From positions 1 to 55,227 of IMG/VR virus record IMGVR_UViG_2718218434_000004: DNA of 55,227 nucleotides. One strand, written 5' to 3'. Position numbers and translations under genes: made by a program. Under the pieces are notes generated by a model, which was given only the letters and a program-made list of their open reading frames with translations, searched no databases and was not told the origin of the DNA. How positions within the stretch are numbered: position 1 is the stretch's first letter; each line of letters starts with the position of its first letter. The stretch is from a virus (Duplodnaviria; Heunggongvirae; Uroviricota; Caudoviricetes). Positions 4,742-50,167 of the stretch are shown in pieces.

Positions 4742-5481
4742 TAATCACCCCATAGTGAAGAAAAGTTACTGCTGGCTGCTGGCTGTGATACCTGCTCAGA
4801 TTGCGGCAATGTCTGCGACGAAGAAGAAGTTCCTCTGTCAACTGCTGAAATAACCCGCAAAGCATCATAAGCTCGACCAGAAGCAGCTTTCAGCGAATTG
4901 AACTGGTTTTCCATCTTCCGGCGCTTGGTATCAATGGTTTTTGTGGAGTCGCCAGGCTGAGGGAAATACATTTGATAATATTTTGACATTTCAGCAGGTG
5001 CGATAGCTGCCCCTGTTTCCTGACGGAGTATTGCCATTATTGCGTCATTAGCATTAACAACGTATTGCTGCTCTGTTGGGCTGAGCGTTAAGTTAGCCAG
5101 CGTCCCATTACCCAAAGCATTATTAATGATCGCCACTCGCTGTGGGCTAAGCTGGTCTTTCAGTGTATCTATTGAATCAAGAGCATCCCTAACCCTGTAT
5201 GCAAATCCAGCAGCTTTTTTAGCCCCTTCTGGCGACTTTTCCATGATCTTTTGGGCTGTTGGCAAAGCTATTGGACGAAACCCATCTCCAGATATTGGCT
5301 GGTTTAGTTTTCCCTGCTCTTCACTTCCGTCTGTGTAGTATTTTGTGACAGTGCCATCATCGTTTTCTCTAACACTCATTAATTTTTTGGCGTTTGTATT
5401 AATTCCAGCCGCTGCCGCAAATGCCGCCGCCCCCTCTGGATCCGCCTTTAACATTTGAGCGTACTGATTGTAATTCTGCAT
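4741..5481 (-). CDS. uncharacterised 246-aa protein, same operon as the primase
   Basis: ORF starts 27 bp after the primase stop and overlaps the start of the 701-aa ORF. Confidence 0.55.
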
Positions 5482-5507
5482 TGCTGCTGTTGGTGCATAT
5501 GCTGACG

Positions 5508-6857
5508 TTAACGCATTTGCTCGGCTACCCCACCAGCTTTAAGTGTGCGCCATCCTTCACGTTCACCAATATCAGCCAGTGGAATGGCAGCGGTTGTCGG
5601 CGTTTCAGAACCAAACGACAGCCAGCGAAGAATGAGATACTGGTCTTTATCGTCTCTGCCAGTACCGATAACGCTTAACGGAGAACATAACCAGCTTTCG
5701 TTATTGATGATTTCTCCACTCTGGCTGTCAGCTCTCGGAGATACCCAATAAATACCATCCTCGCGGCTTTCTATTCTTGGTTTCAGTGGGTCGGTATCCA
5801 TAACCTTAAAATCGCTTCCCTCAATGGTCTGTGGCTCCTGTTTCACGCCATTACCCTGTGGTTGGTACATTGACTTATTGAACGCTTCTGTGGCGCATTT
5901 AATGCCGTGTTTTTGGTGGTAATCATTCCAGTCTGCTTTGTGATCTGTCGGGGGTAATGCCACCCATCCAGAAACAGATAAAGCTGCTTTTTCTGCTGCT
6001 ATTCTCCCCGTGTTTTGTCTTCCTTCGCTGTGGTCGTTATCCGCAGCAATGATGATTTGTGCTGAAGGAAATTTATCCCGCAGTACCTGGGCGACATATA
6101 ACAGGTTCCCGGCATCAATCGCCGCCACTGTCAGCGCCTCTGGACGAATTAAATGGGCAGATAATGCCGTTGCCAGCCCTTCTGCGATTAAGATGCTCTG
6201 TGTTGTTTCTGGCGCGTTTATGGCGTGATATGCCCCCCGCTTTGCTGAACCTGTCAGGAGTCTTTTTTCACCATGTGATGTAATAGTCTGTGCTGCTGTG
6301 ACTGCGCCGGATTTATCCACCAGCGCCAGCAACAGAGATCCATCGGGCAACACGGGGAATGTAAAATCACCTACCCCTTTCGCAACCAGATAATCAGATT
6401 TGCCGTTTACAGCCTTTCTGCGCATGTCATCAAACTGACGGGAAAACGTATCCCGTCTTTGTTGTTCGTCCTTCTCTGCTCTTTTCAGGCGCTCCTGTTC
6501 GCGTCGCTGGCGCTCGGTTTCCAGTTGTTCCCGTTTCTGGCTGGTGGCTTCTGGTGTTTCCGTTGTCCGGTAATCAATACCCAGAACATCAGCGGCAAGA
6601 AGCGCCGCCTCTGTTGTGTCGCAGTTATTTACGCGTTTAATTAAATCCAGCCCATCACCAGCGCCGCACTGATTACAGATGAAGCTACCGCGCCCGTTGT
6701 CATCGAACCGGAATCGATCTTTGCCCCCACATGCAGGGCAGGGAGCATGACGGCGCGGAGAGTCAGGGACATTTATGTTCAGGCAGCCCAGCACATGAGG
6801 CCAGTTGTTTTCAGACGCACTGATAACCTGACGGATAAGATCAATGTTTCGCATCAC
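5508..6857 (-). CDS. DNA primase (zinc-ribbon plus Toprim, P4 alpha N-terminal-like; no helicase domain)
   Basis: [14 protein letters not shown]...[12 protein letters not shown] zinc-binding motif and Toprim-like [17 protein letters not shown] in a 449-aa ORF. Confidence 0.7.
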
Positions 6858-15561: not shown

Positions 15562-15981
15562 TTAGTAACTTTTGCTCCCCTCAATAAATCCGCCATCTTT
15601 TATCGGACTGCAATGTCCTTCTTCATCAATCAGTTGCTCGTCTTTCAGGTAGGTATATCGATAGATAATTGAGCCATTATCCATCTCACCATTGGTTCGT
15701 TTCATTAGGAGAGTAAAATGTAACGGGCTGTCCCTATATCGAGCTATTCCATGAATATTGGCAAGTACCTCATATTGACGCTCAGGTGATAACCCTTTAA
15801 ATACATCGAGATATCCATGGAATGTTCCATAGAGTGAAGAAGTGTAGATCAGTCGCTGCTCTGGACCAGTAACTTTAAGAGTAATTTGTTCACCCGTATT
15901 ACAGGTTAGCTTGGCGGGAAATGTCTCAGCCTGAGCAGAAGAAATAGTCAAGCTTAAAATTATCAGGTAGCAATATTTCAT
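15562..15981 (-). CDS. secreted protein of unknown function
   Basis: Start at ATG 15981 (MKYCYLIILSLTISSAQA-ETF) gives a signal peptide; AT-rich, own intergenic regions. Confidence 0.5.
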   Translation of the reverse strand: MKYCYLIILSLTISSAQAETFPAKLTCNTGEQITLKVTGPEQRLIYTSSLYGTFHGYLDVFKGLSPERQYEVLANIHGIARYRDSPLHFTLLMKRTNGEMDNGSIIYRYTYLKDEQLIDEEGHCSPIKDGGFIEGSKSY

Positions 15982-19066: not shown

Positions 19067-19481
19067 ACCATTCAATATCTGGCGCACCGGAAGTATCGAC
19101 CAGTTCCAGTGCGTCCAGATAATCCAGCCACAAATTATATTGCGCCAGTTCCTCACCTTTCAGACGACCAATTGATGCTTTACCTGGCCATTGTTTACTG
19201 TTTATGTATTCGTTGGCCTGGTTAATCAATTGCTGCTTTTTAGTTTCGGCTGATGCAATTTGTTCTTCACGTGTTGGTGGAGGAATATCTGCCCATGCAG
19301 GCAGTCCATCCTCTCCGACACATCTGTATTTTCCTTCTGGTGGTGTATCATAGAAATATTCCCTGAAAATTACTTCGTCTATATCAACACCTTTTTCTTC
19401 AGGCCATTCACCTTTTTCAACATAAAGAGACTGAAGTTCGTAAGGATATGCCAGGTTGTTTACGTACAGATATTTCATCAT
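19038..19481 (-). CDS. tail fibre assembly protein
   Basis: 147-aa ORF directly downstream of the tail-fibre gene, same strand. Confidence 0.65.
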   Translation of the reverse strand: MMKYLYVNNLAYPYELQSLYVEKGEWPEEKGVDIDEVIFREYFYDTPPEGKYRCVGEDGLPAWADIPPPTREEQIASAETKKQQLINQANEYINSKQWPGKASIGRLKGEELAQYNLWLDYLDALELVDTSGAPDIEWSTPPAVQAR

Positions 19482-20104
19482 TACCAGCCCTTAGCGAAAA
19501 ACGCACCACCTTCAAGACCATAATTGCAGTGAGCTATGAAGCCGGTAGTGCTCCAGTTGGTCGCCCCCCACATATTCCCGCCCCCGAAACCACCATCGCA
19601 CACAATTACAATGCCCGGTGTCTGTGTAAATGGAATCGGGAATGAAACATTGGCGGATACAGGCCCGTGTTCACCAGGAAAACTAATTCGTCCCCACTGT
19701 TCAATTGAACCATCTGGCATTTTTCGCCAGCCTGAACCTGATGCATATGATGACATATCAGGTATCTGATTTTCCCCTGTTCCCACATTCCGTTTTGCCG
19801 CTTCTCCCAAACCAAGGTTTTCGAGAGCCGTTTTCACCGTGCCATCCGATTTGATATCGCCAAACGGATTCTTGCGGCTTAACAGCAGCGCACGAAGCGC
19901 TGTAAGCAGCTGGTCATGCCGCCCCTTCTCTAGGCTGGCACCGGATGCCTCCACAACACTGCAAAGTTCCTCCTGCAACATGTCAAAGTAGTCATCATCC
20001 AGATCGGTGGCAGGTGTGCCGGTCTGGGGGTTACCACGGGTAAAACCGTTCTTACCCGCGCCGAACTTATCCTTCTGCGCGGTTTTCGTGTCTATACGAT
20101 GCAT
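19481..20104 (-). CDS. side tail fibre protein (constant N-terminus plus invertible C-terminus)
   Basis: 207-aa ORF; the crossover site lies about one third into the gene, as for e14 StfP/Mu S. Confidence 0.65.
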
Positions 20105-40055: not shown

Positions 40056-40336
40056 TATTGCCTCAGATGATCAACCAGACGTGCAACGTTGCCTCTGACG
40101 GACACCAGCACGGAAAGAAAAATAGTATTAGCCACGATAATGGGCCATGAGGAATGGGGATAAATCCCACAGAGATAGGCCAACGGAACAGCACTGTATG
40201 TAACAGTAATCAGCCAGGCTAAACGTGAAACCCAAGGACGATGCCGCGAATCACCACGACGATAAAACATCAGAGTAATAACAACACAAGCACATAACAG
40301 CGCATTTATAGTTGCTGTCGGGTCATTTAGCTCCAC
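40055..40336 (-). CDS. holin
   Basis: 93-aa membrane protein immediately upstream of the endolysin. Confidence 0.6.
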   Translation of the reverse strand: MELNDPTATINALLCACVVITLMFYRRGDSRHRPWVSRLAWLITVTYSAVPLAYLCGIYPHSSWPIIVANTIFLSVLVSVRGNVARLVDHLRQ

Positions 40337-40709
40337 CTGAACCTCCCCGGCGCGTTATGAGCGCCACCAGCGAGCCGATATCCTGATTATTCAGGAACGT
40401 CAGGATTTTAACGGCTAAAGCAGAGACGATTACGGCACCAATAGCATCCAGAGGTTTATCACTGTATCCGGTCAAGTTCGCCAGCTTGGAGCCAACCAAC
40501 CCAGAGCAAAGGATCCCGGCAATATATGACACGATAAAATATGCCAGTCGGCGCGATGCACTCAGATCTGCTGCTGTTGCTATGTAGAATACAGCCCCTG
40601 CAAATGCGCCAAATACAACGCCGTAATCAGTTCCGGTCAGCAGTCCATAAACACTGGCACCCGTCAGGGCACCACCAGCCAGCCCAGTACCGGAAATCGG
40701 ATCGGACAT
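40323..40709 (-). CDS. holin-like membrane protein
   Basis: 128-aa Gly/Ala-rich multi-TM ORF at the start of the lysis cassette. Confidence 0.5.
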   Translation of the reverse strand: MSDPISGTGLAGGALTGASVYGLLTGTDYGVVFGAFAGAVFYIATAADLSASRRLAYFIVSYIAGILCSGLVGSKLANLTGYSDKPLDAIGAVIVSALAVKILTFLNNQDIGSLVALITRRGGSGGAK

Positions 40710-40788: not shown

Positions 40789-41046
40789 TCAAACACTACC
40801 CTGTTGATGATTTCTCAGAAGCGAACTTGACTCCCAAGGGAAACTCAACTTTCCGTTAAAACCACCAGCAGACATTCGTTCAATTTCCACAGAAATATCA
40901 CTGAGCCGTTCTTCAAGCTCTGCTTTTTCTTTTACCAGACGGTTATAGCGGCTTAGATGAAGCTTTTGCTGCTCCAGCCAGTCTTCAAGCTGTTCAACAG
41001 TCATACAAGGGTTAAAAAAATATGGCTGCTGCTTTTCGCCTTGCAT
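40789..41046 (-). CDS. hypothetical protein, first gene of the late operon
   Basis: Start at ATG 41046 with GGAGG RBS; the longer ORF start would span the tR'-like terminator. Confidence 0.4.
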   Translation of the reverse strand: MQGEKQQPYFFNPCMTVEQLEDWLEQQKLHLSRYNRLVKEKAELEERLSDISVEIERMSAGGFNGKLSFPWESSSLLRNHQQGSV

Positions 41047-41057
41047 TATTGACCTCC

Positions 41058-41088
41058 AGAAAAGCAAAAACCCCGCCGAAGCGAGGTT
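41058..41088 (-). terminator. tR'-like rho-independent terminator downstream of Q
   Basis: Minus strand: CCTCGC-ttcg-GCGGGG followed by TTTTTGCTTTT. Confidence 0.5.
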
Positions 41089-41136
41089 TGTTATGATTTC
41101 GTTAACGGCAGACATACAAAGCCCATCGTTAGGAGA

Positions 41137-41196: not shown

Positions 41197-41955
41197 TTAT
41201 CTCGTCACTTTTCTTAATTGCGCCTCAGCATATGCTTCTTCCTGCCAGCACTTTGTAACCAGTTTATCAATGACATCTGCATATCCTTTGTACCACTGAT
41301 AATCCGTCAGGTCTGGTACCAGCTTCTGGACATGATGCCGCGCCAGTGTGGTTGGTAAACGGCTAAACCGGTTTCCATTGCAACGCCCACAAATCTTATA
41401 AACAGGCGTGCCATGAAGCCGGGTCCTTTTTTCATCCAGGACAATACCTTTACCCTTACACCCTCTGCACGCTGTGCTGACTTCTCCCTTACCATGACAA
41501 TGCTGACATAGTTCCTTCACCCACTCCTCCTTGATAACAGATTCACCGCTTCTGGAGTGTTTCAACACTTCGCGCAATACATTATGAAATCCAGTACCAG
41601 CACAATGCTCACAGCGAGCCTTACTTGCCGCAGACCTGGAATAATCAGCAAAGGCAAAATTCACAAGGTAAGGGATGATCTGTAACCGGGTTTCTTCACT
41701 CAATTTATTCAATGTCGGGTTATCCAGTGCCATCGCGTAATTGAGCAGACCTTCAATCGCAAACTGAGGATCCTGAACACCAACTTTTGCCAGGAATAAG
41801 GCAAAACCCAGTGGTGCTTTCGACTGCACCATCCCCTGCGCAGCCATCACATCCGTAATCGTTAAACCACCAGAGCCTGTCGCCGGTGCGTCATCGCTCA
41901 ATTTTGGAGATTTTGGGGAGTAATATTTTGGTAAGGCTTCAAGGTTCATGCTCAT
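41197..41955 (-). CDS. antitermination protein Q
   Basis: CEHCAGTGF...CQHCHGKGE...CRGCKGKG zinc-binding motifs; position just before PR'/lysis. Confidence 0.75.
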   Translation of the reverse strand: MSMNLEALPKYYSPKSPKLSDDAPATGSGGLTITDVMAAQGMVQSKAPLGFALFLAKVGVQDPQFAIEGLLNYAMALDNPTLNKLSEETRLQIIPYLVNFAFADYSRSAASKARCEHCAGTGFHNVLREVLKHSRSGESVIKEEWVKELCQHCHGKGEVSTACRGCKGKGIVLDEKRTRLHGTPVYKICGRCNGNRFSRLPTTLARHHVQKLVPDLTDYQWYKGYADVIDKLVTKCWQEEAYAEAQLRKVTR

Positions 41956-47721: not shown

Positions 47722-47792
47722 TATGTACCTCCGGTGTACATATTACATGATTGAAATGAACCTTCAAGATACTTGTACCTTAACGGTACAAG
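47722..47792. promoter_or_regulatory. OR-like operators between cro and cI
   Basis: ATGTACC-tccggt-GTACAT (47722-47741) and CTTGTACC-ttaac-GGTACAAG (47772-47792) share TGTAC...GTACA half-sites. Confidence 0.55.
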
Positions 47793-47807: not shown

Positions 47808-48482
47808 ATGAAAACAATCCATGACATCCGGCGGTCTAACGCCAGAAAACTGAGAGATGGTGTTGGCGGGAATTCTTCCTTTGCCACTATGATTGATCGC
47901 GAGCCAACCCAGACCAGCAGGTTTATGGGAGATGGTGCTACTAAAAATATCGGTGACAGCATGGCACGACACATCGAAAAATGTTTCGACCTGCCTGTCG
48001 GATGGCTCGATCAAGAACACCAGACAACGAACATCACAAAAAAACCTGATGTTTCAATCACTAATAAACAAATCACATTAGTCCCTGTCATATCATGGGT
48101 ACAGGCCGGAGCATGGAAAGAAGTTGGATATTCTGAGGTTGATTTGAGCACAGCAGAAACGTATCCCTGCCCTGTCCCCTGTGGGGAAATGACTTATATC
48201 TTGCGGGTGATAGGTGATTCAATGATTGATGAGTACCGCCCGGGAGACATGATTTTTGTCGATCCTGAAGTACCTGCCTGCCACGGTGACGACGTTATTG
48301 CATTGATGCACGATACAGGTGAAACCACCTTCAAAAGGTTGATAGAAGATGGGACACAGCGTTATCTCAAAGCGTTAAACCCAAACTGGCCTGAGCCTTA
48401 CATTAAGATCAACGGTAATTGCTCTATAATTGGTACAGTGATTTTCTCAGGAAAACCAAGAAGATACAAAATCAAAGCCTAA
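47808..48482 (+). CDS. cI: CI-like repressor (HTH plus S24 LexA-like peptidase domain)
   Basis: 224 aa; C-terminal GDSM...KR S24 autocleavage region; divergent from cro. Confidence 0.8.
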   Translation: MKTIHDIRRSNARKLRDGVGGNSSFATMIDREPTQTSRFMGDGATKNIGDSMARHIEKCFDLPVGWLDQEHQTTNITKKPDVSITNKQITLVPVISWVQAGAWKEVGYSEVDLSTAETYPCPVPCGEMTYILRVIGDSMIDEYRPGDMIFVDPEVPACHGDDVIALMHDTGETTFKRLIEDGTQRYLKALNPNWPEPYIKINGNCSIIGTVIFSGKPRRYKIKA

Positions 48483-48493
48483 TCAATGTTTAT

Positions 48494-48518
48494 GAACCTG
48501 CTTCGGCAGGTTTTTTTA
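48494..48518 (+). terminator. rho-independent terminator after cI
   Basis: ACCTGC-ttcg-GCAGGT followed by TTTTTTT. Confidence 0.55.
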
Positions 48519-48521
48519 TAC

Positions 48522-48549
48522 TTGACAATGTACCTTTGAGATACATAAT
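48522..48549 (+). promoter_or_regulatory. PL-like promoter (TTGACA-16-CATAAT) with overlapping operator ATGTACC...TACAT
   Basis: Near-consensus hexamers; the ATGTACC half-site matches the OR operators. Confidence 0.5.
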
Positions 48550-48716
48550 GTACCCAAGAGAAACAACAAACAGGCAGGACGTCCACGAAGTAGCCCCCTG
48601 GAGCATATGAAGTCCAGGATGATTCGTTAGCAACAAAAAAGCGCCCTACAGGACGCTTAGCTCTTTAACAATCTGGTCCCCATCAACAAGTAACTGATAA
48701 CTTGAGGAGGTGTGAA

Positions 48717-48923
48717 ATGCACAAAACAGAACCCAAAATCGTCGCGCCTGGCTACACAGATGAGGAAATTTATGAGTGGATGACAAAGAAGCTGGCAGCT
48801 ATAAACCAGCTTCGTGAAGTGCTGTCTTATCGACAGGAAACAATAGACTCCTTAAAAAAACTGGATCAGGAAATCACGGTTTTATCACAGGATGTTACTT
48901 TAGATATTGTGCAGACAAATTAG
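48717..48923 (+). CDS. small coiled-coil protein, first gene after the PL-like promoter
   Basis: GAGGAGG RBS 6 nt before ATG; 68 aa; no Arg-rich motif. Confidence 0.45.
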   Translation: MHKTEPKIVAPGYTDEEIYEWMTKKLAAINQLREVLSYRQETIDSLKKLDQEITVLSQDVTLDIVQTN

Positions 48924-49329
48924 GATCCCATTCATTTTCGTCAAAATCATCAAAGTGATGAATTTGTGATCTCCAGTCTCGATAATCTAAAAATTTCTGG
49001 GCGGTTACGCTTATTTTATCAAGTGTGAGTTCATCCTGAATTGAAAGAAGAAGTTCATCAAATTTCATCTCATTAATCTTTTTTGGCATCCAGTGATGCT
49101 TCATCAGAATAAGGTGAACCAGAGCCTTTTTCCCATTCAACTGATTATAGGGAGTGCCGAATTTCTTCCGGTGCTCATGTAAGACAAGATCCAGAAGAGT
49201 AAGTAATGTTGCCCTTGATTCCACTTTGCTTATTTCGACTGATGACACTACCCCACTGATTTCAATGCCCCGATACTTTCCAACATTTTCACAGTGGGAT
49301 TTGTACAACGTGTAGATATTACCGGACAT
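48895..49329 (-). CDS. AT-rich 144-aa hypothetical protein, antisense to the leftward operon
   Basis: Low-GC ORF converging on and overlapping the 48717-48923 gene; repeats in its upstream region. Confidence 0.5.
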   Translation of the reverse strand: MSGNIYTLYKSHCENVGKYRGIEISGVVSSVEISKVESRATLLTLLDLVLHEHRKKFGTPYNQLNGKKALVHLILMKHHWMPKKINEMKFDELLLSIQDELTLDKISVTAQKFLDYRDWRSQIHHFDDFDENEWDPNLSAQYLK

Positions 49330-49344
49330 TTCTTTTCCTTTTGC

Positions 49345-49396
49345 GTTGTTGGGGATAACCAGATTAACCGAATCCTTGTTGTTGGGGAATAACCAG
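49345..49396. repeat. direct repeats GTTGTTGGGGATAACCAG (49345-49362) and GTTGTTGGGGAATAACCAG (49378-49396)
   Basis: Two near-identical 18/19-mers 33 bp apart, just upstream of the 144-aa gene start. Confidence 0.45.
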
Positions 49397-49599
49397 GTCC
49401 ACCTCGCCTGATGTGGCTAAAAGCAGGCACATAACAGCTAAGTATTTTCAACCAGAGAGAATCCTTAGCGTTGTGGTGAATGCTGCTCAGCGCACGCGGG
49501 TTAAGGTTGAGGCTGACAGTCGACCTTCTGTGGATACCCACCCGCCTGGTGTGCAACCTTCGCCAGGCACCGGGAGGCACCCGGCACCCGGCACCACAA

Positions 49600-49760
49600 C
49601 TTTATGCTGTGTGTAGTCCTGGCGGTACCAGCTTGTACCCTTGCTTCCGGCTGGTACCGTCCTTTTTACAAAACAGAGAAGAGCATCACCGGACGACGGG
49701 CTCATAACCCAATCCATCCGGGCGGCTGCCACCGCAGGTGTTCTTCTCTGTTTTGTGGAG
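49600..49760 (+). other. GC-rich structured region with nested inverted repeats (candidate leader, terminator or ncRNA)
   Basis: 15-bp perfect inverted repeat ACAAAACAGAGAAGA (49668-49682) / TCTTCTCTGTTTTGT (49742-49756); 9-bp pair GGTACCAGC/GCTGGTACC (49624-49632, 49650-49658). Confidence 0.3.
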
Positions 49761-49804
49761 AAACTAATCGGCCTTGCAGGGTCGATATGATGAGGAGCAG
49801 CAAA

Positions 49805-50167
49805 ATGGCTAGCGAACGCAGTACTGATGTGCAGGCATTTATCGGGGAGCTGGACGGCGGCGTATTTGAAACCAAAATCGGCGCAGTTCTCAGTGAAGTC
49901 GCTTCCGGTGTGATGAACACGAAAACCAAAGGTAAGGTCTCAATCAACCTGGAAATCGAACCATTTGATGAGAACCGTGTGAAAATCAAACACAAACTCT
50001 CATATGTTCGCCCGACTAACCGCGGGAAAATTTCCGAAGAAGACACCACCGAAACGCCGATGTATGTCAATCGCGGTGGTCGCCTGACTATTCTGCAGGA
50101 AGACCAGGGACAGTTACTGACTCTTGCCGGTGAACCTGACGGAAAACTCCGCGCAGCAGGTCGTTAA
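49805..50167 (+). CDS. yfdP: YfdP-like hypothetical protein
   Basis: GAGGAG RBS then ATG at 49805 gives 120 aa, the length recalled for YfdP; precedes the yfdQRST-like genes. Confidence 0.45.
   Translation: MASERSTDVQAFIGELDGGVFETKIGAVLSEVASGVMNTKTKGKVSINLEIEPFDENRVKIKHKLSYVRPTNRGKISEEDTTETPMYVNRGGRLTILQEDQGQLLTLAGEPDGKLRAAGR

What the first reader, a model, noticed from the sequence alone, without database searches (positions are those of the whole stretch)
48494..49400. Immunity-region cargo: PL-like promoter, small coiled-coil gene, and a convergent AT-rich 144-aa gene
Directly after the cI terminator lies a near-consensus promoter overlapped by an operator resembling OR. Its first gene is a 68-aa protein with no Arg-rich motif, so it is not a recognisable N. 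A 144-aa AT-rich gene lies antisense and overlaps its 3' end, with paired 18-bp direct repeats in its own upstream region. This is the position where lambda carries rexAB, a classic defence or exclusion slot.
Basis: partly seen in the sequence, partly recalled or inferred. Interest (0 to 1): 0.55.

Follow-up and report, generated by a model that had tools for sequence, protein, structure and literature searches.

The report
Swappable prophage cargo slot behind PL
Just downstream of this prophage's repressor-controlled early promoter sits a conserved "plug-in" slot that here holds a two-gene module of unknown function: one gene faces against the lytic operon, and its small partner is read with it.

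Summary
The sequence features are real. The window is an SfIV/e14-type lambdoid prophage: cI terminator, a near-consensus PL with two cI operators, a 68-aa gene in PL sense, and an overlapping antisense 144-aa gene.

The lambda rexAB analogy is positionally wrong, because the cargo lies downstream of PL, inside its leader.

The slot is a conserved exchange site. In more than 100 viral contigs with at least eight immunity types, the same two boundaries flank at least four unrelated cargo types, always in one orientation:
- PL side: hairpin, then a boxA identical over 13 nt to the rrnB leader boxA, then AATCTGG.TATCC.
- Far side: GGATA.CCAGATT in inverted orientation, present twice.

The 144-aa protein belongs to the NCBIfam "ECs1072" family. 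It has about 76 clusters, is soluble and all-alpha, and matches no Pfam family, no PADLOC defence model and no solved fold.

The 68-aa protein belongs to a partner family (hhalign 96.6%). That family lies convergent to and usually overlapping ECs1072 genes in PL, PR and late operons of unrelated phages.

Most likely this is a lysogen-expressed accessory (exclusion-type) gene. On induction it would be silenced by head-on lytic transcription and neutralised by its partner. That function is inferred, not shown. A partner-only copy lies at 40789-41115.

The parts
48494..48520 (+). Intrinsic terminator of the cI (ymfK-like) gene
   Evidence: Stem-loop 48494-48513 plus a T-run. The same feature is annotated as a terminator in SfV and Ayreon.
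48522..48549 (+). PL promoter (TTGACA-16-CATAAT)
   Evidence: Matches 11/12 consensus positions and scores 13.0 on my PWM. It is 100% identical to K-12 e14, where the first PL gene ymfJ and intE are induced late in the SOS response under CI-like control (PMC11002266).
48529..48565 (.). Two cI operators (OL1 48529-48545, OL2 48549-48565) overlapping the PL spacer, -10 and start region
   Evidence: Repeat families D1, D7 and D12 link them to the three OR sites at 47724-47790.
48597..48618 (+). Conserved PL-leader hairpin 1 (stem 48597-48602 / 48613-48618, loop GCATATGAAG)
   Evidence: In alignment A5 (46 distinct leaders), 18 cells change on both sides of a pair, 0 of 500 shuffles reach the observed score, and slid controls are low. 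The hairpin is also present in e14 and SfV.
48633..48658 (-). Hairpin 2 (48639-48645 / 48651-48658). On the minus strand it is followed by TTTTTTG and acts as an intrinsic terminator for the antisense cargo. On the plus strand it is the hairpin immediately preceding boxA.
   Evidence: Terminator scan. It is conserved at the 3' end of every cargo type, with stem variants that keep the pairing.
48660..48672 (+). rrn-type boxA (GCTCTTTAACAAT) in the PL leader
   Evidence: It is the only match with at most one mismatch to TGCTCTTTAACAA in the window. The 13-mer is identical to the E. coli rrnB leader and shows the same hairpin-then-boxA order. It is the most conserved block across 71 distinct leaders; in the 46-leader A5 alignment GCTCTTT is invariant and the remaining positions are nearly so.
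48670..48690 (.). Left boundary repeat (AATCTGGTCCCCATCAACAAG), the inverted copy of the right-hand repeats
   Evidence: I5, I16. The equivalent ...GGATATCCAGATT|GTTAAAGAGC junction ends every cargo type.
48704..48923 (+). SD plus the 68-aa partner gene (PHROG 1744), first ORF of the PL transcript and part of the cargo
   Evidence: PHROG hit and 54 homologue clusters. Diverged copies keep the ORF next to diverged ECs1072 genes. One family with the PR-type and late-type partners: hhalign 96.6%, E 5e-10. AF2 predicts a long helix.
48788..48813 (-). Possible first terminator of the 144-aa mRNA (9-bp stem, weak U-tract)
   Evidence: Terminator scan only.
48895..49329 (-). 144-aa ECs1072-family gene, antisense to PL
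   Evidence: NCBIfam NF033230, 157 bits against a cut-off of 70; PHROG 5286. 76 clusters at 50% identity, all about 145-155 aa. AF2 gives pLDDT 80 and an all-alpha model. No Pfam, PADLOC, PDB or BFVD relatives.
49343..49403 (-). Conserved cargo platform: two direct repeats (49346-49365, 49379-49398). Cargo begins immediately after ...CCCCAACAAC. The best, but weak, promoter candidate is TTCCCC-17-TAATCT (-10 at 49366..49361).
   Evidence: 54 distinct upstream sequences share the block. The PWM score is 5.4, below the shuffled-maximum median of 7.7, so a promoter is not established.
49399..49428 (.). Conserved pseudoknot-like element (CCAC..GCCTG..GTGG..CAGGC) shared with e14 and SfV
   Evidence: Alignment. 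One contig (L037) changes both helices compensatorily, read by eye. Its function and its active strand are unknown.
49448..49670 (+). STnc100-like structured RNA ending in an intrinsic terminator (stem 49621-49632 / 49650-49661, T-run 49663-49667), upstream of yfdP
   Evidence: Rfam RF02076 at 32 bits, below the gathering score of 47, E 1.6e-4. It lies outside the finding, but the PL transcript must pass through it.
40789..41115 (-). Second, orphan partner-family gene (108 aa, PHROG 3501) between Q and holin, with no ECs1072 gene beside it
   Evidence: In Serratia (L148) and in L141 the same site holds the full two-gene module.

Best explanation
Region 48494-49440 is the PL control region and leader of an SfIV/e14-type lambdoid prophage, and a dedicated cargo-exchange slot is built into that leader.

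Order on the plus strand:
1. cI terminator
2. PL with two cI operators
3. conserved leader hairpin
4. a second hairpin followed directly by an rrn-type boxA
5. left boundary repeat
6. cargo
7. right boundary repeat (present twice) and platform
8. structured RNA with a terminator
9. yfdP and the rest of the early-left operon

The cargo here is a two-gene module. One gene encodes a 144-aa soluble all-alpha protein of the ECs1072 family and is read against PL. The other encodes a 68-aa long-helix partner and is read with PL. The two genes converge and overlap by 29 nt.

Proposed operation:
1. In the lysogen cI shuts PL. The 144-aa gene is transcribed at a low level from the platform and stops at the hairpin just before boxA, so its RNA is antisense to the whole partner gene.
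2. On induction PL fires. Nus factors load at boxA and make the polymerase resistant to Rho across roughly 880 nt of untranslated, antisense-oriented RNA.
3. The partner is the first protein made, and head-on transcription plus duplex RNA shut off the 144-aa gene.
4. The 144-aa protein most likely provides a lysogen-specific function directed at other phages (exclusion or abortive infection). The partner most likely neutralises it so that the prophage's own lytic cycle is spared.

Shown here: the anatomy, the conservation of the slot with swapped cargo, and the conserved pairing and orientation of the two gene families.

Inferred: transcription of the antisense gene from the platform, boxA function, partner-effector antagonism, and the anti-phage role.
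For: Slot.
- The same platform and the same hairpin-boxA boundary flank at least four unrelated cargo types in about 110 IMG/VR contigs, always in one orientation.
- At least 8 different PL/operator types lie upstream of the same leader.
- SfV, PhiR29_1, Ayreon, Stx2c phages and Kati break homology exactly at these boundaries.

boxA.
- The 13-mer is identical to the rrnB leader and shows the same hairpin-then-boxA order.
- It is the only match of that quality in the window.
- It is the most conserved block of the leaders; GCTCTTT is invariant in the 46-leader alignment.

The leader hairpin covaries.

PL.
- The sequence is identical to K-12 e14.
- In e14 the first PL gene ymfJ and intE are induced late in the SOS response under CI-like control.
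- The equivalent convergent pair ymfI-ymfJ is listed as an excludon from RNA-seq.

Module.
- ECs1072-family genes lie antisense inside PL, PR, early or late operons in every context examined: the window, L008, L009, L052, L115, L130, L138/139, L140, L141/142, Sakai Sp4 and Serratia L148.
- 59 of 65 family ORFs in the loci I hold have a convergent partner-family ORF at their 3' end.
- PL-type and PR/late-type partners are a single family: hhalign 96.6%, E 5e-10; PHROG cross-hits.
- Partner-only copies exist, as expected of an antidote.
- ECs1072 gave a significant signal on a microarray of uninduced Sakai cells.
- Low GC and a terminator of its own fit a moron.
Against: - No sigma-70 promoter for the 144-aa gene reaches significance. 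The best candidate scores 5.4, against a shuffled-maximum median of 7.7.
- Nothing links either protein to a known defence family or fold, so the anti-phage role rests on context alone.
- e14 and SfV use the same PL and leader without a boxA or the boundary repeats, so boxA is not indispensable for expression of distal PL genes.
- Two ECs1072 homologues, in L008 and L140, have no recognisable partner.
- The 59/65 co-occurrence count is dominated by near-identical E. coli copies. Only about 10 arrangements are independent.
- The role of the boundary repeats is unexplained. The inner part of the 3' copy does not covary with the 5' copy.
Confidence: 0.5

Rival explanations
1. The module regulates the prophage's own life cycle rather than acting on other phages. 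The 144-aa protein would stabilise lysogeny or delay early-left functions, and the PL-encoded partner would lift that block after induction.
For: The orientation logic is the same: effector antisense, partner in operon sense. The modules always lie next to regulatory nodes, namely PL, PR/cII or Q. There is no match to any defence model.
Against: The module is dispensable. Closely related phages with the same immunity region carry unrelated cargo or none. It occurs in three different operons, which is hard to reconcile with a single specific regulatory target. Orphan partner genes fit an antidote against foreign effectors better.
Confidence: 0.2
2. One reading: a rexAB-like exclusion cassette sitting in the rex position of the immunity region.
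For: It is adjacent to cI, AT-rich and variable among relatives.
Against: It lies downstream of PL and is not co-transcribed with cI, because cI has its own terminator at 48494-48513. There are no RexA/RexB or PADLOC hits. The 144-aa protein has no membrane segment; its maximum 19-residue hydropathy is 0.84.
Confidence: 0.03
3. The 68-aa protein is this phage's N-type antiterminator, acting at the boxA/hairpin nut site just upstream of it.
For: It is the first ORF after PL and lies 45 nt downstream of a boxA.
Against: It has no Arg-rich motif: 0 Arg in the first 25 residues and pI 4.8. It is absent from phages with the same PL, leader and boxA but other cargo. Its homologues sit in PR and late operons, always paired with ECs1072 genes.
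Confidence: 0.03
4. The boundary repeats are the ends of a mobile or invertible DNA cassette (MITE-like element, or invertase or recombinase sites), and cargo exchange is site-specific rather than by homologous recombination in conserved flanks.
For: Inverted copies of AATCTGG(A/T)TATCC bracket every cargo, and the breakpoints between phages fall at them. The repeats travel with an ECs1072 homologue into an unrelated prophage, L008.
Against: None of about 110 contigs shows the cargo in the opposite orientation. No uninterrupted palindromic empty site exists in IMG/VR; the 4 exact hits are unrelated coding sequence. No recombinase is linked to the slot. The repeats overlap functional RNA and promoter elements.
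Confidence: 0.1
5. One or both ORFs are non-functional reading frames in a fast-evolving intergenic leader.
For: Many database copies of the 68-aa ORF are frameshifted at the A7 run 48854-48860. There is no functional annotation anywhere.
Against: Both are families with members down to about 20-35% identity that keep length and conserved residues. The 144-aa protein gives a confident AF2 model. The 68-aa ORF has a strong SD.
Confidence: 0.04

Closest known systems
P22/lambda sieB-esc-sas (superinfection exclusion B with an escape function and an antisense RNA; Ranade & Poteete 1993, from my own knowledge)
   Same: A lysogen-expressed accessory gene embedded in the early-left operon near PL. 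The phage avoids harming itself through a second product and antisense RNA made during its own lytic growth.
   Different: There is no sequence or Pfam relationship. SieB is a membrane protein, and Esc is an in-frame internal product of the same gene. Here the effector is soluble, it is read antisense to PL, and the putative escape factor is a separate convergent gene.
HK022 nun / put (N-less lambdoid phage)
   Same: The first gene after PL is not an N. An exclusion gene occupies the N position, and antitermination relies on cis RNA plus host factors rather than on N.
   Different: Nun is Arg-rich and read in PL sense. There is no similarity to the HK022 PL-nun region. The cis element here is an rrn-type boxA, not put.
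E. coli rrn antiterminator (boxB hairpin - boxA - boxC; NusB/S10/NusA/NusG/SuhB)
   Same: The 13-nt boxA is identical, and a hairpin lies immediately 5' of it, as in the rrnB leader. It sits at the start of a long untranslated transcript.
   Different: No boxC-like GU-rich element was recognised. The context is a phage early operon. Function is untested, and relatives such as e14 and SfV lack it.
Phage morons and P2/P4 cargo hotspots (Juhala 2000, from my own knowledge; Rousset 2022, PMC9122126, seen but not read)
   Same: Conserved flanks with interchangeable, low-GC accessory genes that carry their own terminator. Presence or absence varies among close relatives.
   Different: The slot lies inside the PL leader directly after a boxA. 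The cargo is always antisense to the operon, and the boundaries are inverted repeats. None of the cargo matches catalogued defence systems.
Excludons (convergent overlapping transcription units; ExcludonFinder, PMC12288877)
   Same: Convergent genes with overlapping 3' ends and expected mutually exclusive expression. The e14 equivalent, ymfI-ymfJ, is on the published E. coli list.
   Different: Transcript overlap was not measured for this module. Here the pairing of two specific protein families is conserved across unrelated loci, which suggests a protein-level partnership as well.
BstA-aba (prophage defence with cognate self-immunity; PMC8585504, seen but not read in detail)
   Same: A prophage defence gene next to the repressor locus, with a built-in way to spare the resident phage.
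   Different: The proteins are unrelated. The self-immunity element of BstA is a DNA site (from my own knowledge), whereas here it would be a protein plus antisense transcription. The defence role here is unproven.
lambda rexAB
   Same: An accessory, AT-rich locus in the immunity region.
   Different: The position is different (rex is upstream of PL and transcribed from PRM), there is no homology, and there is no membrane component.

Membership tests
NCBIfam NF033230 'ECs1072 family phage-associated protein' / PHROG 5286 | Whole-protein score above the curated cut-off (70 bits) | tested here: met
   157.1 bits, E 2.8e-46, covering 141 of 142 profile positions. PHROG 5286 E 4.6e-90. The family name carries no function.
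lambda RexAB | Located between cI and OL/PL and co-transcribed with cI from PRM | tested here: not met
   cI ends at 48482 with its own terminator at 48494-48513, and PL follows at 48522. The cargo is downstream of PL.
lambda RexAB | Homology to RexA/RexB; RexB is a polytopic membrane protein | tested here: not met
   No Pfam or PADLOC hit. Maximum 19-residue hydropathy is 0.84, so there is no TM segment.
N-type antiterminator | N-terminal arginine-rich motif | tested here: not met
   0 Arg in residues 1-25, 2 Arg in all, pI 4.8.
N-type antiterminator | Conserved together with its nut site among phages sharing the leader | tested here: not met
   Phages with the same leader and boxA but other cargo lack the 68-aa gene.
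SieB superinfection exclusion | Pfam SieB domain / membrane protein | tested here: not met
   No Pfam hit at E<=0.1. No TM segment.
Catalogued anti-phage defence systems (PADLOC-DB 2.0) | Match to any of the 5027 models | tested here: not met
   No hit at E<=1 for either protein. The other cargo types give only insignificant hits.
Type II toxin-antitoxin | Two co-directional, co-transcribed genes forming an autoregulated operon | tested here: not met
   The genes are convergent and overlap at their 3' ends. Toxicity was not testable.
Excludon | Convergent (or divergent) genes whose transcripts overlap | tested here: inconclusive
   The ORFs overlap by 29 nt, and the minus-strand terminators lie within or beyond the 68-aa gene. 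Transcripts were not measured. The e14 counterpart ymfI-ymfJ is a published excludon.
Moron (independent transcription unit inserted in a phage operon) | Own terminator, deviant base composition, variable presence among relatives | tested here: met
   Terminator 48658->48639 plus a T-run. GC 37.9% against 49.8%. Alternative cargo in relatives.
Moron (independent transcription unit inserted in a phage operon) | Own promoter | tested here: inconclusive
   The best candidate, TTCCCC-17-TAATCT, scores below shuffled controls. Some variants carry TATAAT at that place.
rrn-type / nut-type boxA antitermination site | boxA consensus sequence in the promoter-proximal transcript | tested here: met
   GCTCTTTAACAAT at 48660-48672 is identical to the rrnB leader 13-mer, is about 105 nt from the inferred PL start, and is the most conserved block across the leaders.
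rrn-type / nut-type boxA antitermination site | NusB/S10 binding and terminator or Rho readthrough | not testable with these tools
   Requires biochemistry, or reporter assays in nusB/nusE mutants.
Rfam RF02076 STnc100 | Score at or above the gathering threshold (47 bits) | tested here: not met
   32 bits, E 1.6e-4 at 49448-49670. A true STnc100 in Sakai Sp4 scores 138 bits and lies downstream of Q.

The most novel reading that the evidence does not exclude
The ECs1072-family gene and its small convergent partner form a previously unrecognised, widespread prophage two-gene system: an effector expressed only in lysogeny, and an antidote wired to lytic promoters. Phages plug it, always antisense, into PL, PR or late operons. 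In SfIV/e14-type phages it occupies a purpose-built exchange site in the PL leader. There an rrn-type boxA licenses RNA polymerase to drive through any antisense cargo, and a split inverted repeat marks the cassette boundaries. Orphan partner genes, such as 40789-41115 here, would then be counter-defence against the effectors of rival prophages.
Probability: 0.3. Interest if true: 0.75.

Novelty: new variant of a known kind. Interest (0 to 1): 0.55.

Why it matters
If the reading holds, it adds a new small effector/antidote family to prophage-encoded inter-phage warfare. Its self-sparing would come from promoter wiring and head-on transcription rather than from operon co-expression.

It also points to a compact, portable cargo dock in the PL leader of very common E. 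coli/Shigella prophages. Parts of this region occur in 2868 of 5426 complete E. coli genomes. The other cargoes found at the same dock are unannotated candidates for the same kind of function:
- a coiled-coil protein with CxxC motifs;
- a Pro-rich peptide followed by a 2-TM protein;
- small Pro-rich ORFs.

The rrn-identical boxA placed immediately before antisense cargo is a testable example of a phage borrowing the host ribosomal antitermination signal to keep an operon running across untranslated, oppositely oriented inserts.

If the function turns out to be mundane, the practical value is better annotation. The partner ORF is unannotated in O157 Sakai, and 'ymfH'-type ORFs overlie a structured RNA.

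Tried and rejected
2. Empty-site hypothesis: cargo inserted into a boxB-like palindrome AATCTGGATATCCAGATT. The only 4 exact hits in IMG/VR lie in unrelated coding sequence.
3. HK022 put-like leader: no similarity to the HK022 PL-nun region.
4. Invertible cassette: no inverted cargo in about 110 contigs.
5. Canonical promoter for the antisense gene: none in the window or in a TATAAT-bearing variant.
6. RNA clamp between the 5' and 3' repeats of the cargo mRNA. The MFE does pair them, but the fold is no better than shuffles (z -0.7), and the inner repeat halves do not covary. I left this unexplained.
7. SfV's published P4-like termination immunity (C4/isrK RNAs). It lies on the PR side of SfV/Ayreon (L005:478-666) and is absent from this window, so it is not relevant here.
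8. Literature searches for ECs1072, the protein accessions and the PHROG ids returned one microarray table and nothing else.
Full report
**What the window is.** The region belongs to an SfIV/SfV/e14-type lambdoid prophage of E. coli/Shigella.
- Stretch 48400-49850 is 97.7% identical to Shigella phage SfIV and about 98.5% identical to many E. coli chromosomes. Parts of it occur in 2868 of 5426 complete E. coli genomes.
- RefSeq annotates the neighbours as ymfL (cII-like, PF06892), ymfT (cro), ymfK (LexA-type cI), two hypothetical proteins, an 'ECs1072 family phage-associated protein', and yfdP/yfdQ/yfdR.

**Checking the observation.**
- The cI gene (47808-48482) ends in a stem-loop with a T-run at 48494-48513.
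- It is followed by TTGACA-16-CATAAT at 48522-48549. This matches 11/12 positions and is the best promoter-like site in the 2.9 kb scanned. My PWM score is 13.0, against a shuffled-maximum median of 7.7.
- Two 17-bp sites, 48529-48545 and 48549-48565, resemble the three OR sites around 47724-47790. One of those, TGTACCTTAACGGTACA, is a perfect palindrome.
- The 68-aa ORF (48717-48923) has a GAGGAGG Shine-Dalgarno sequence, no Arg in its first 25 residues and pI 4.8. AF2 models it as one long helix, residues 15-67, at pLDDT 90.
- The 144-aa ORF (48895-49329, minus strand) overlaps it by 29 nt and has 37.9% GC, against 49.8% for the window.
- The two direct repeats lie at 49346-49365 and 49379-49398. 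A third copy, in inverted orientation, lies at 48670-48690.
- Stretch 48461-48580 is 100% identical to K-12 e14. In e14 the first PL gene ymfJ and the distal intE are induced late in the SOS response, and the authors attribute this to the CI-like repressor (PMC11002266). PL function is therefore supported by published data on the identical sequence.

**The position is not the rex position.** By established knowledge, lambda rexAB lies between cI and OL/PL and is transcribed with cI from PRM. Here cI terminates and PL follows at once, so the cargo is inside the PL leader. That is the place of nutL/N in lambda and of nun in HK022.

**The slot is a conserved exchange site.** Pairwise comparisons show where homology breaks:
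- SfV shares the window up to 48628 and again from 49399.
- PhiR29_1 shares it up to 48676 and from 49345.
- Ayreon and the Stx2c phages share it up to 48579 and from 49620.
- Kati, which has a different immunity region, shares it from 48565 onward.

I scanned IMG/VR for the right-hand repeat and obtained 120 stretches. In about 110 of them the block ...CCCCAACAACAAGGATTCGGTTAATCTGG(A/T)TATCCCCAACAAC is followed immediately by a Shine-Dalgarno sequence and a start codon. The genes that follow fall into unrelated types:
- the ECs1072 family (47 loci);
- a 156-173-aa coiled-coil protein with two CxxC pairs (39 loci, 25 distinct sequences; PHROG 1244);
- a 26-28-aa Pro-rich peptide followed by a roughly 150-aa protein with two hydrophobic segments;
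- small Pro-rich ORFs.

None of these matches Pfam or PADLOC significantly.

At the other end every cargo type stops at ...GGATATCCAGATT|GTTAAAGAGC, followed by a GC hairpin and a T-run. The cargo orientation is the same in all contigs. No uninterrupted 'empty' palindrome exists in IMG/VR. At least eight different promoter/operator types precede the same leader, so the dock moves between immunity groups.

**The PL-side boundary read as RNA.** On the PL strand the boundary reads: hairpin (48639-48645 / 48651-48658), one nucleotide, then GCTCTTTAACAAT (48660-48672).
- That 13-mer is identical to the boxA of the E. coli rrnB leader, which is likewise preceded by a hairpin.
- It is the only match with at most one mismatch in the 55-kb window.
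- It is the most conserved block of 71 distinct leaders; in the 46-leader alignment GCTCTTT is invariant.
- Upstream of it a second hairpin (48597-48602 / 48613-48618, loop GCATATGAAG) shows compensatory changes. Eighteen cells change on both sides, 0 of 500 shuffles reach the observed score, and slid controls are low.
- The same GC hairpin read on the minus strand is a good intrinsic terminator for the cargo.

From the end of the 68-aa gene (48923) to yfdP (49805), the PL transcript is about 880 nt of untranslated RNA. This includes an STnc100-like structure with its own terminator. A Nus-factor/boxA complex that protects against Rho is therefore a sensible inference. It is not shown, and e14 and SfV manage without boxA.

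**The 144-aa protein.**
- It scores 157 bits against NCBIfam NF033230, whose cut-off is 70.
- The word-indexed search found only 14 clusters. An exhaustive profile search found 76 clusters at 50% identity, all single-domain proteins of about 145-155 aa.
- Conserved positions are L50, R54, L64, G66, A69, H72 and W134.
- AF2 gives an all-alpha model with pLDDT 80 and pTM 0.80.
- It has no membrane segment.

**The partner, and the module.** Distant ECs1072 genes in the same slot (L052, L115) have a diverged small ORF with a strong SD in the same convergent place. In other contexts the ECs1072 gene is again antisense and has a convergent, usually overlapping, operon-sense ORF:
- the PR operon between cII and the replication genes, in O157 Sakai Sp4 (the family's namesake; its partner ORF is unannotated), L130 and L139;
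- the late operon between Q and holin, in L141/142 and Serratia quinivorans L148.

These partner ORFs share the motif (E/K)P-x-I-x-A-x-x-(L/Y)-(S/T)-x-x-E-(L/I)-x-x-W-(L/M).

Supporting statistics:
- A profile built from the PL-type partners ranks the other partners at the top of 17,265 background ORFs.
- Profile-profile comparison of PL-type against PR/late-type partners gives 96.6% probability, E 5e-10.
- PHROGs 1744 and 3501 cross-hit.
- In the loci I hold, 59 of 65 ECs1072-family ORFs have such a partner at their 3' end. This set is redundant and contains only about ten independent arrangements.
- L008 and L140 lack a recognisable partner.
- Partner-only copies exist in L124, L126, L048 and in this window at 40789-41115, between Q and holin.

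**How it most likely works.**

What is shown:
- the anatomy;
- the cargo exchange at fixed boundaries;
- the conserved antisense placement of the ECs1072 gene;
- the conserved convergent partner.

What is inferred:
1. In the lysogen PL is repressed. The 144-aa gene is transcribed weakly from the platform and terminates at hairpin 2, or possibly at the weaker site 48813-48788. Its RNA therefore covers the partner gene in antisense.
2. After repressor cleavage PL fires and Nus factors load at boxA. The partner is translated first, and head-on transcription and RNA duplexes silence the 144-aa gene.
3. The partner protein neutralises the existing 144-aa protein.
4. The 144-aa protein serves a lysogen-specific purpose. 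The most likely one is exclusion or abortive infection of other phages, by analogy with sieB/esc/sas, nun and BstA.

Indirect support:
- The ECs1072 probe gave a significant signal in uninduced Sakai cells.
- ymfI-ymfJ, the e14 pair in the same place, is a published excludon.

Weak points:
- No significant promoter was found for the antisense gene.
- There is no biochemical clue to the activity of either protein.
- The boundary repeats are unexplained. The cargo mRNA MFE pairs them, but not better than shuffled sequences do, and the inner halves do not covary.

**Comparison with what is known.** This is a member of the catalogued but uncharacterised ECs1072 family. It is not RexAB, N, SieB, a type II TA or any PADLOC system; the defining features were tested and not met. 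It behaves like a moron in a cargo hotspot and like an excludon. I found no paper on the family, the partner or the dock.

**Verdict.** The thing itself is a new variant of a known kind, with a moderately interesting and experimentally tractable hypothesis attached.

Noticed in passing
window 40789-41115 (-): A 108-aa ORF between the Q-like antiterminator (41197-41955) and the holin (40323-40709) belongs to the partner family (PHROG 3501; BLASTP E 2e-13 to the L141 partner). It has no ECs1072-family gene beside it. In Serratia L148 and in L141/142 the same site holds the full two-gene module.
   Followed up: partly
window 49448-49670 (+), terminator stem 49621-49632/49650-49661: A GC-rich (about 57%) structured region gives a sub-threshold Rfam STnc100 hit (32 bits against a gathering score of 47) and ends in a strong intrinsic terminator upstream of yfdP. 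In K-12 e14 the homologous stretch is annotated as the protein gene ymfH, and in RefSeq UPEC as a frameshifted pseudogene. It is more likely an RNA element of the PL operon.
   Followed up: partly
window 49399-49428: A conserved element, CCAC..GCCTG..GTGG..CAGGC, could form an H-type pseudoknot on either strand. One contig (L037) changes both helices compensatorily. It is shared with e14 and SfV, which lack the boundary repeats.
   Followed up: no
window 49668-49692 / 49732-49756: A 25-nt inverted repeat (84% complementary, 39-nt loop) lies directly after the PL-operon terminator and before yfdP. Its function is unknown.
   Followed up: no
window 48854-48860: An A7 run lies inside the 68-aa gene. 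Many database copies are frameshifted exactly there (variants ending ...LKKTGSGNHGF...). These could be sequencing errors or slippage-prone phase variation.
   Followed up: no
window 48998-49013 (+): A weak terminator-like hairpin with TTTTAT on the PL strand lies 75 nt after the 68-aa stop codon, inside the antisense 144-aa coding region.
   Followed up: no
L144 (O157:H7 Sakai Sp4) 19168-19677 (+): An unannotated 169-aa ORF (PHROG 8304) carrying the partner motif converges on and overlaps ECs1072 (now ECs_5703, 19361-19816) in the PR operon, between cII and the replication gene.
   Followed up: partly
L137 (K-12 e14) 4998-5585: In e14 the same PL and leader are followed by a different convergent, overlapping pair: ymfJ in PL sense and ymfI antisense. 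There is no boxA and there are no boundary repeats. SfV orf33 plus an unannotated minus-strand ORF starting at L002:3215 is another such pair.
   Followed up: partly
L004, L024, L035, L030, L015, L126 (IMG/VR and PhiR29_1), cargo downstream of the platform: Other cargo occupies the same dock: a 156-173-aa coiled-coil protein with two CxxC pairs (PHROG 1244), a 26-28-aa peptide M..YEERHMPPFKRPEPPPKP followed by a roughly 150-aa two-TM protein, and 43-55-aa Pro-rich ORFs. All are of unknown function.
   Followed up: partly
L005 (phage Ayreon) 478-666 (-): C4 antisense RNA (80.7 bits) and isrK (58.9 bits) lie in the 'immunity region' gene on the PR side of the SfV/Ayreon-type phages. This second, RNA-based immunity module is replaced by other genes in the window.
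   Followed up: no
L144 (Sakai Sp4) 15570-15719 (-): A second sub-threshold STnc100-like hit (33.6 bits) lies next to DicF in the PL operon. The true STnc100 (138 bits) lies downstream of Q and the tRNAs.
   Followed up: no
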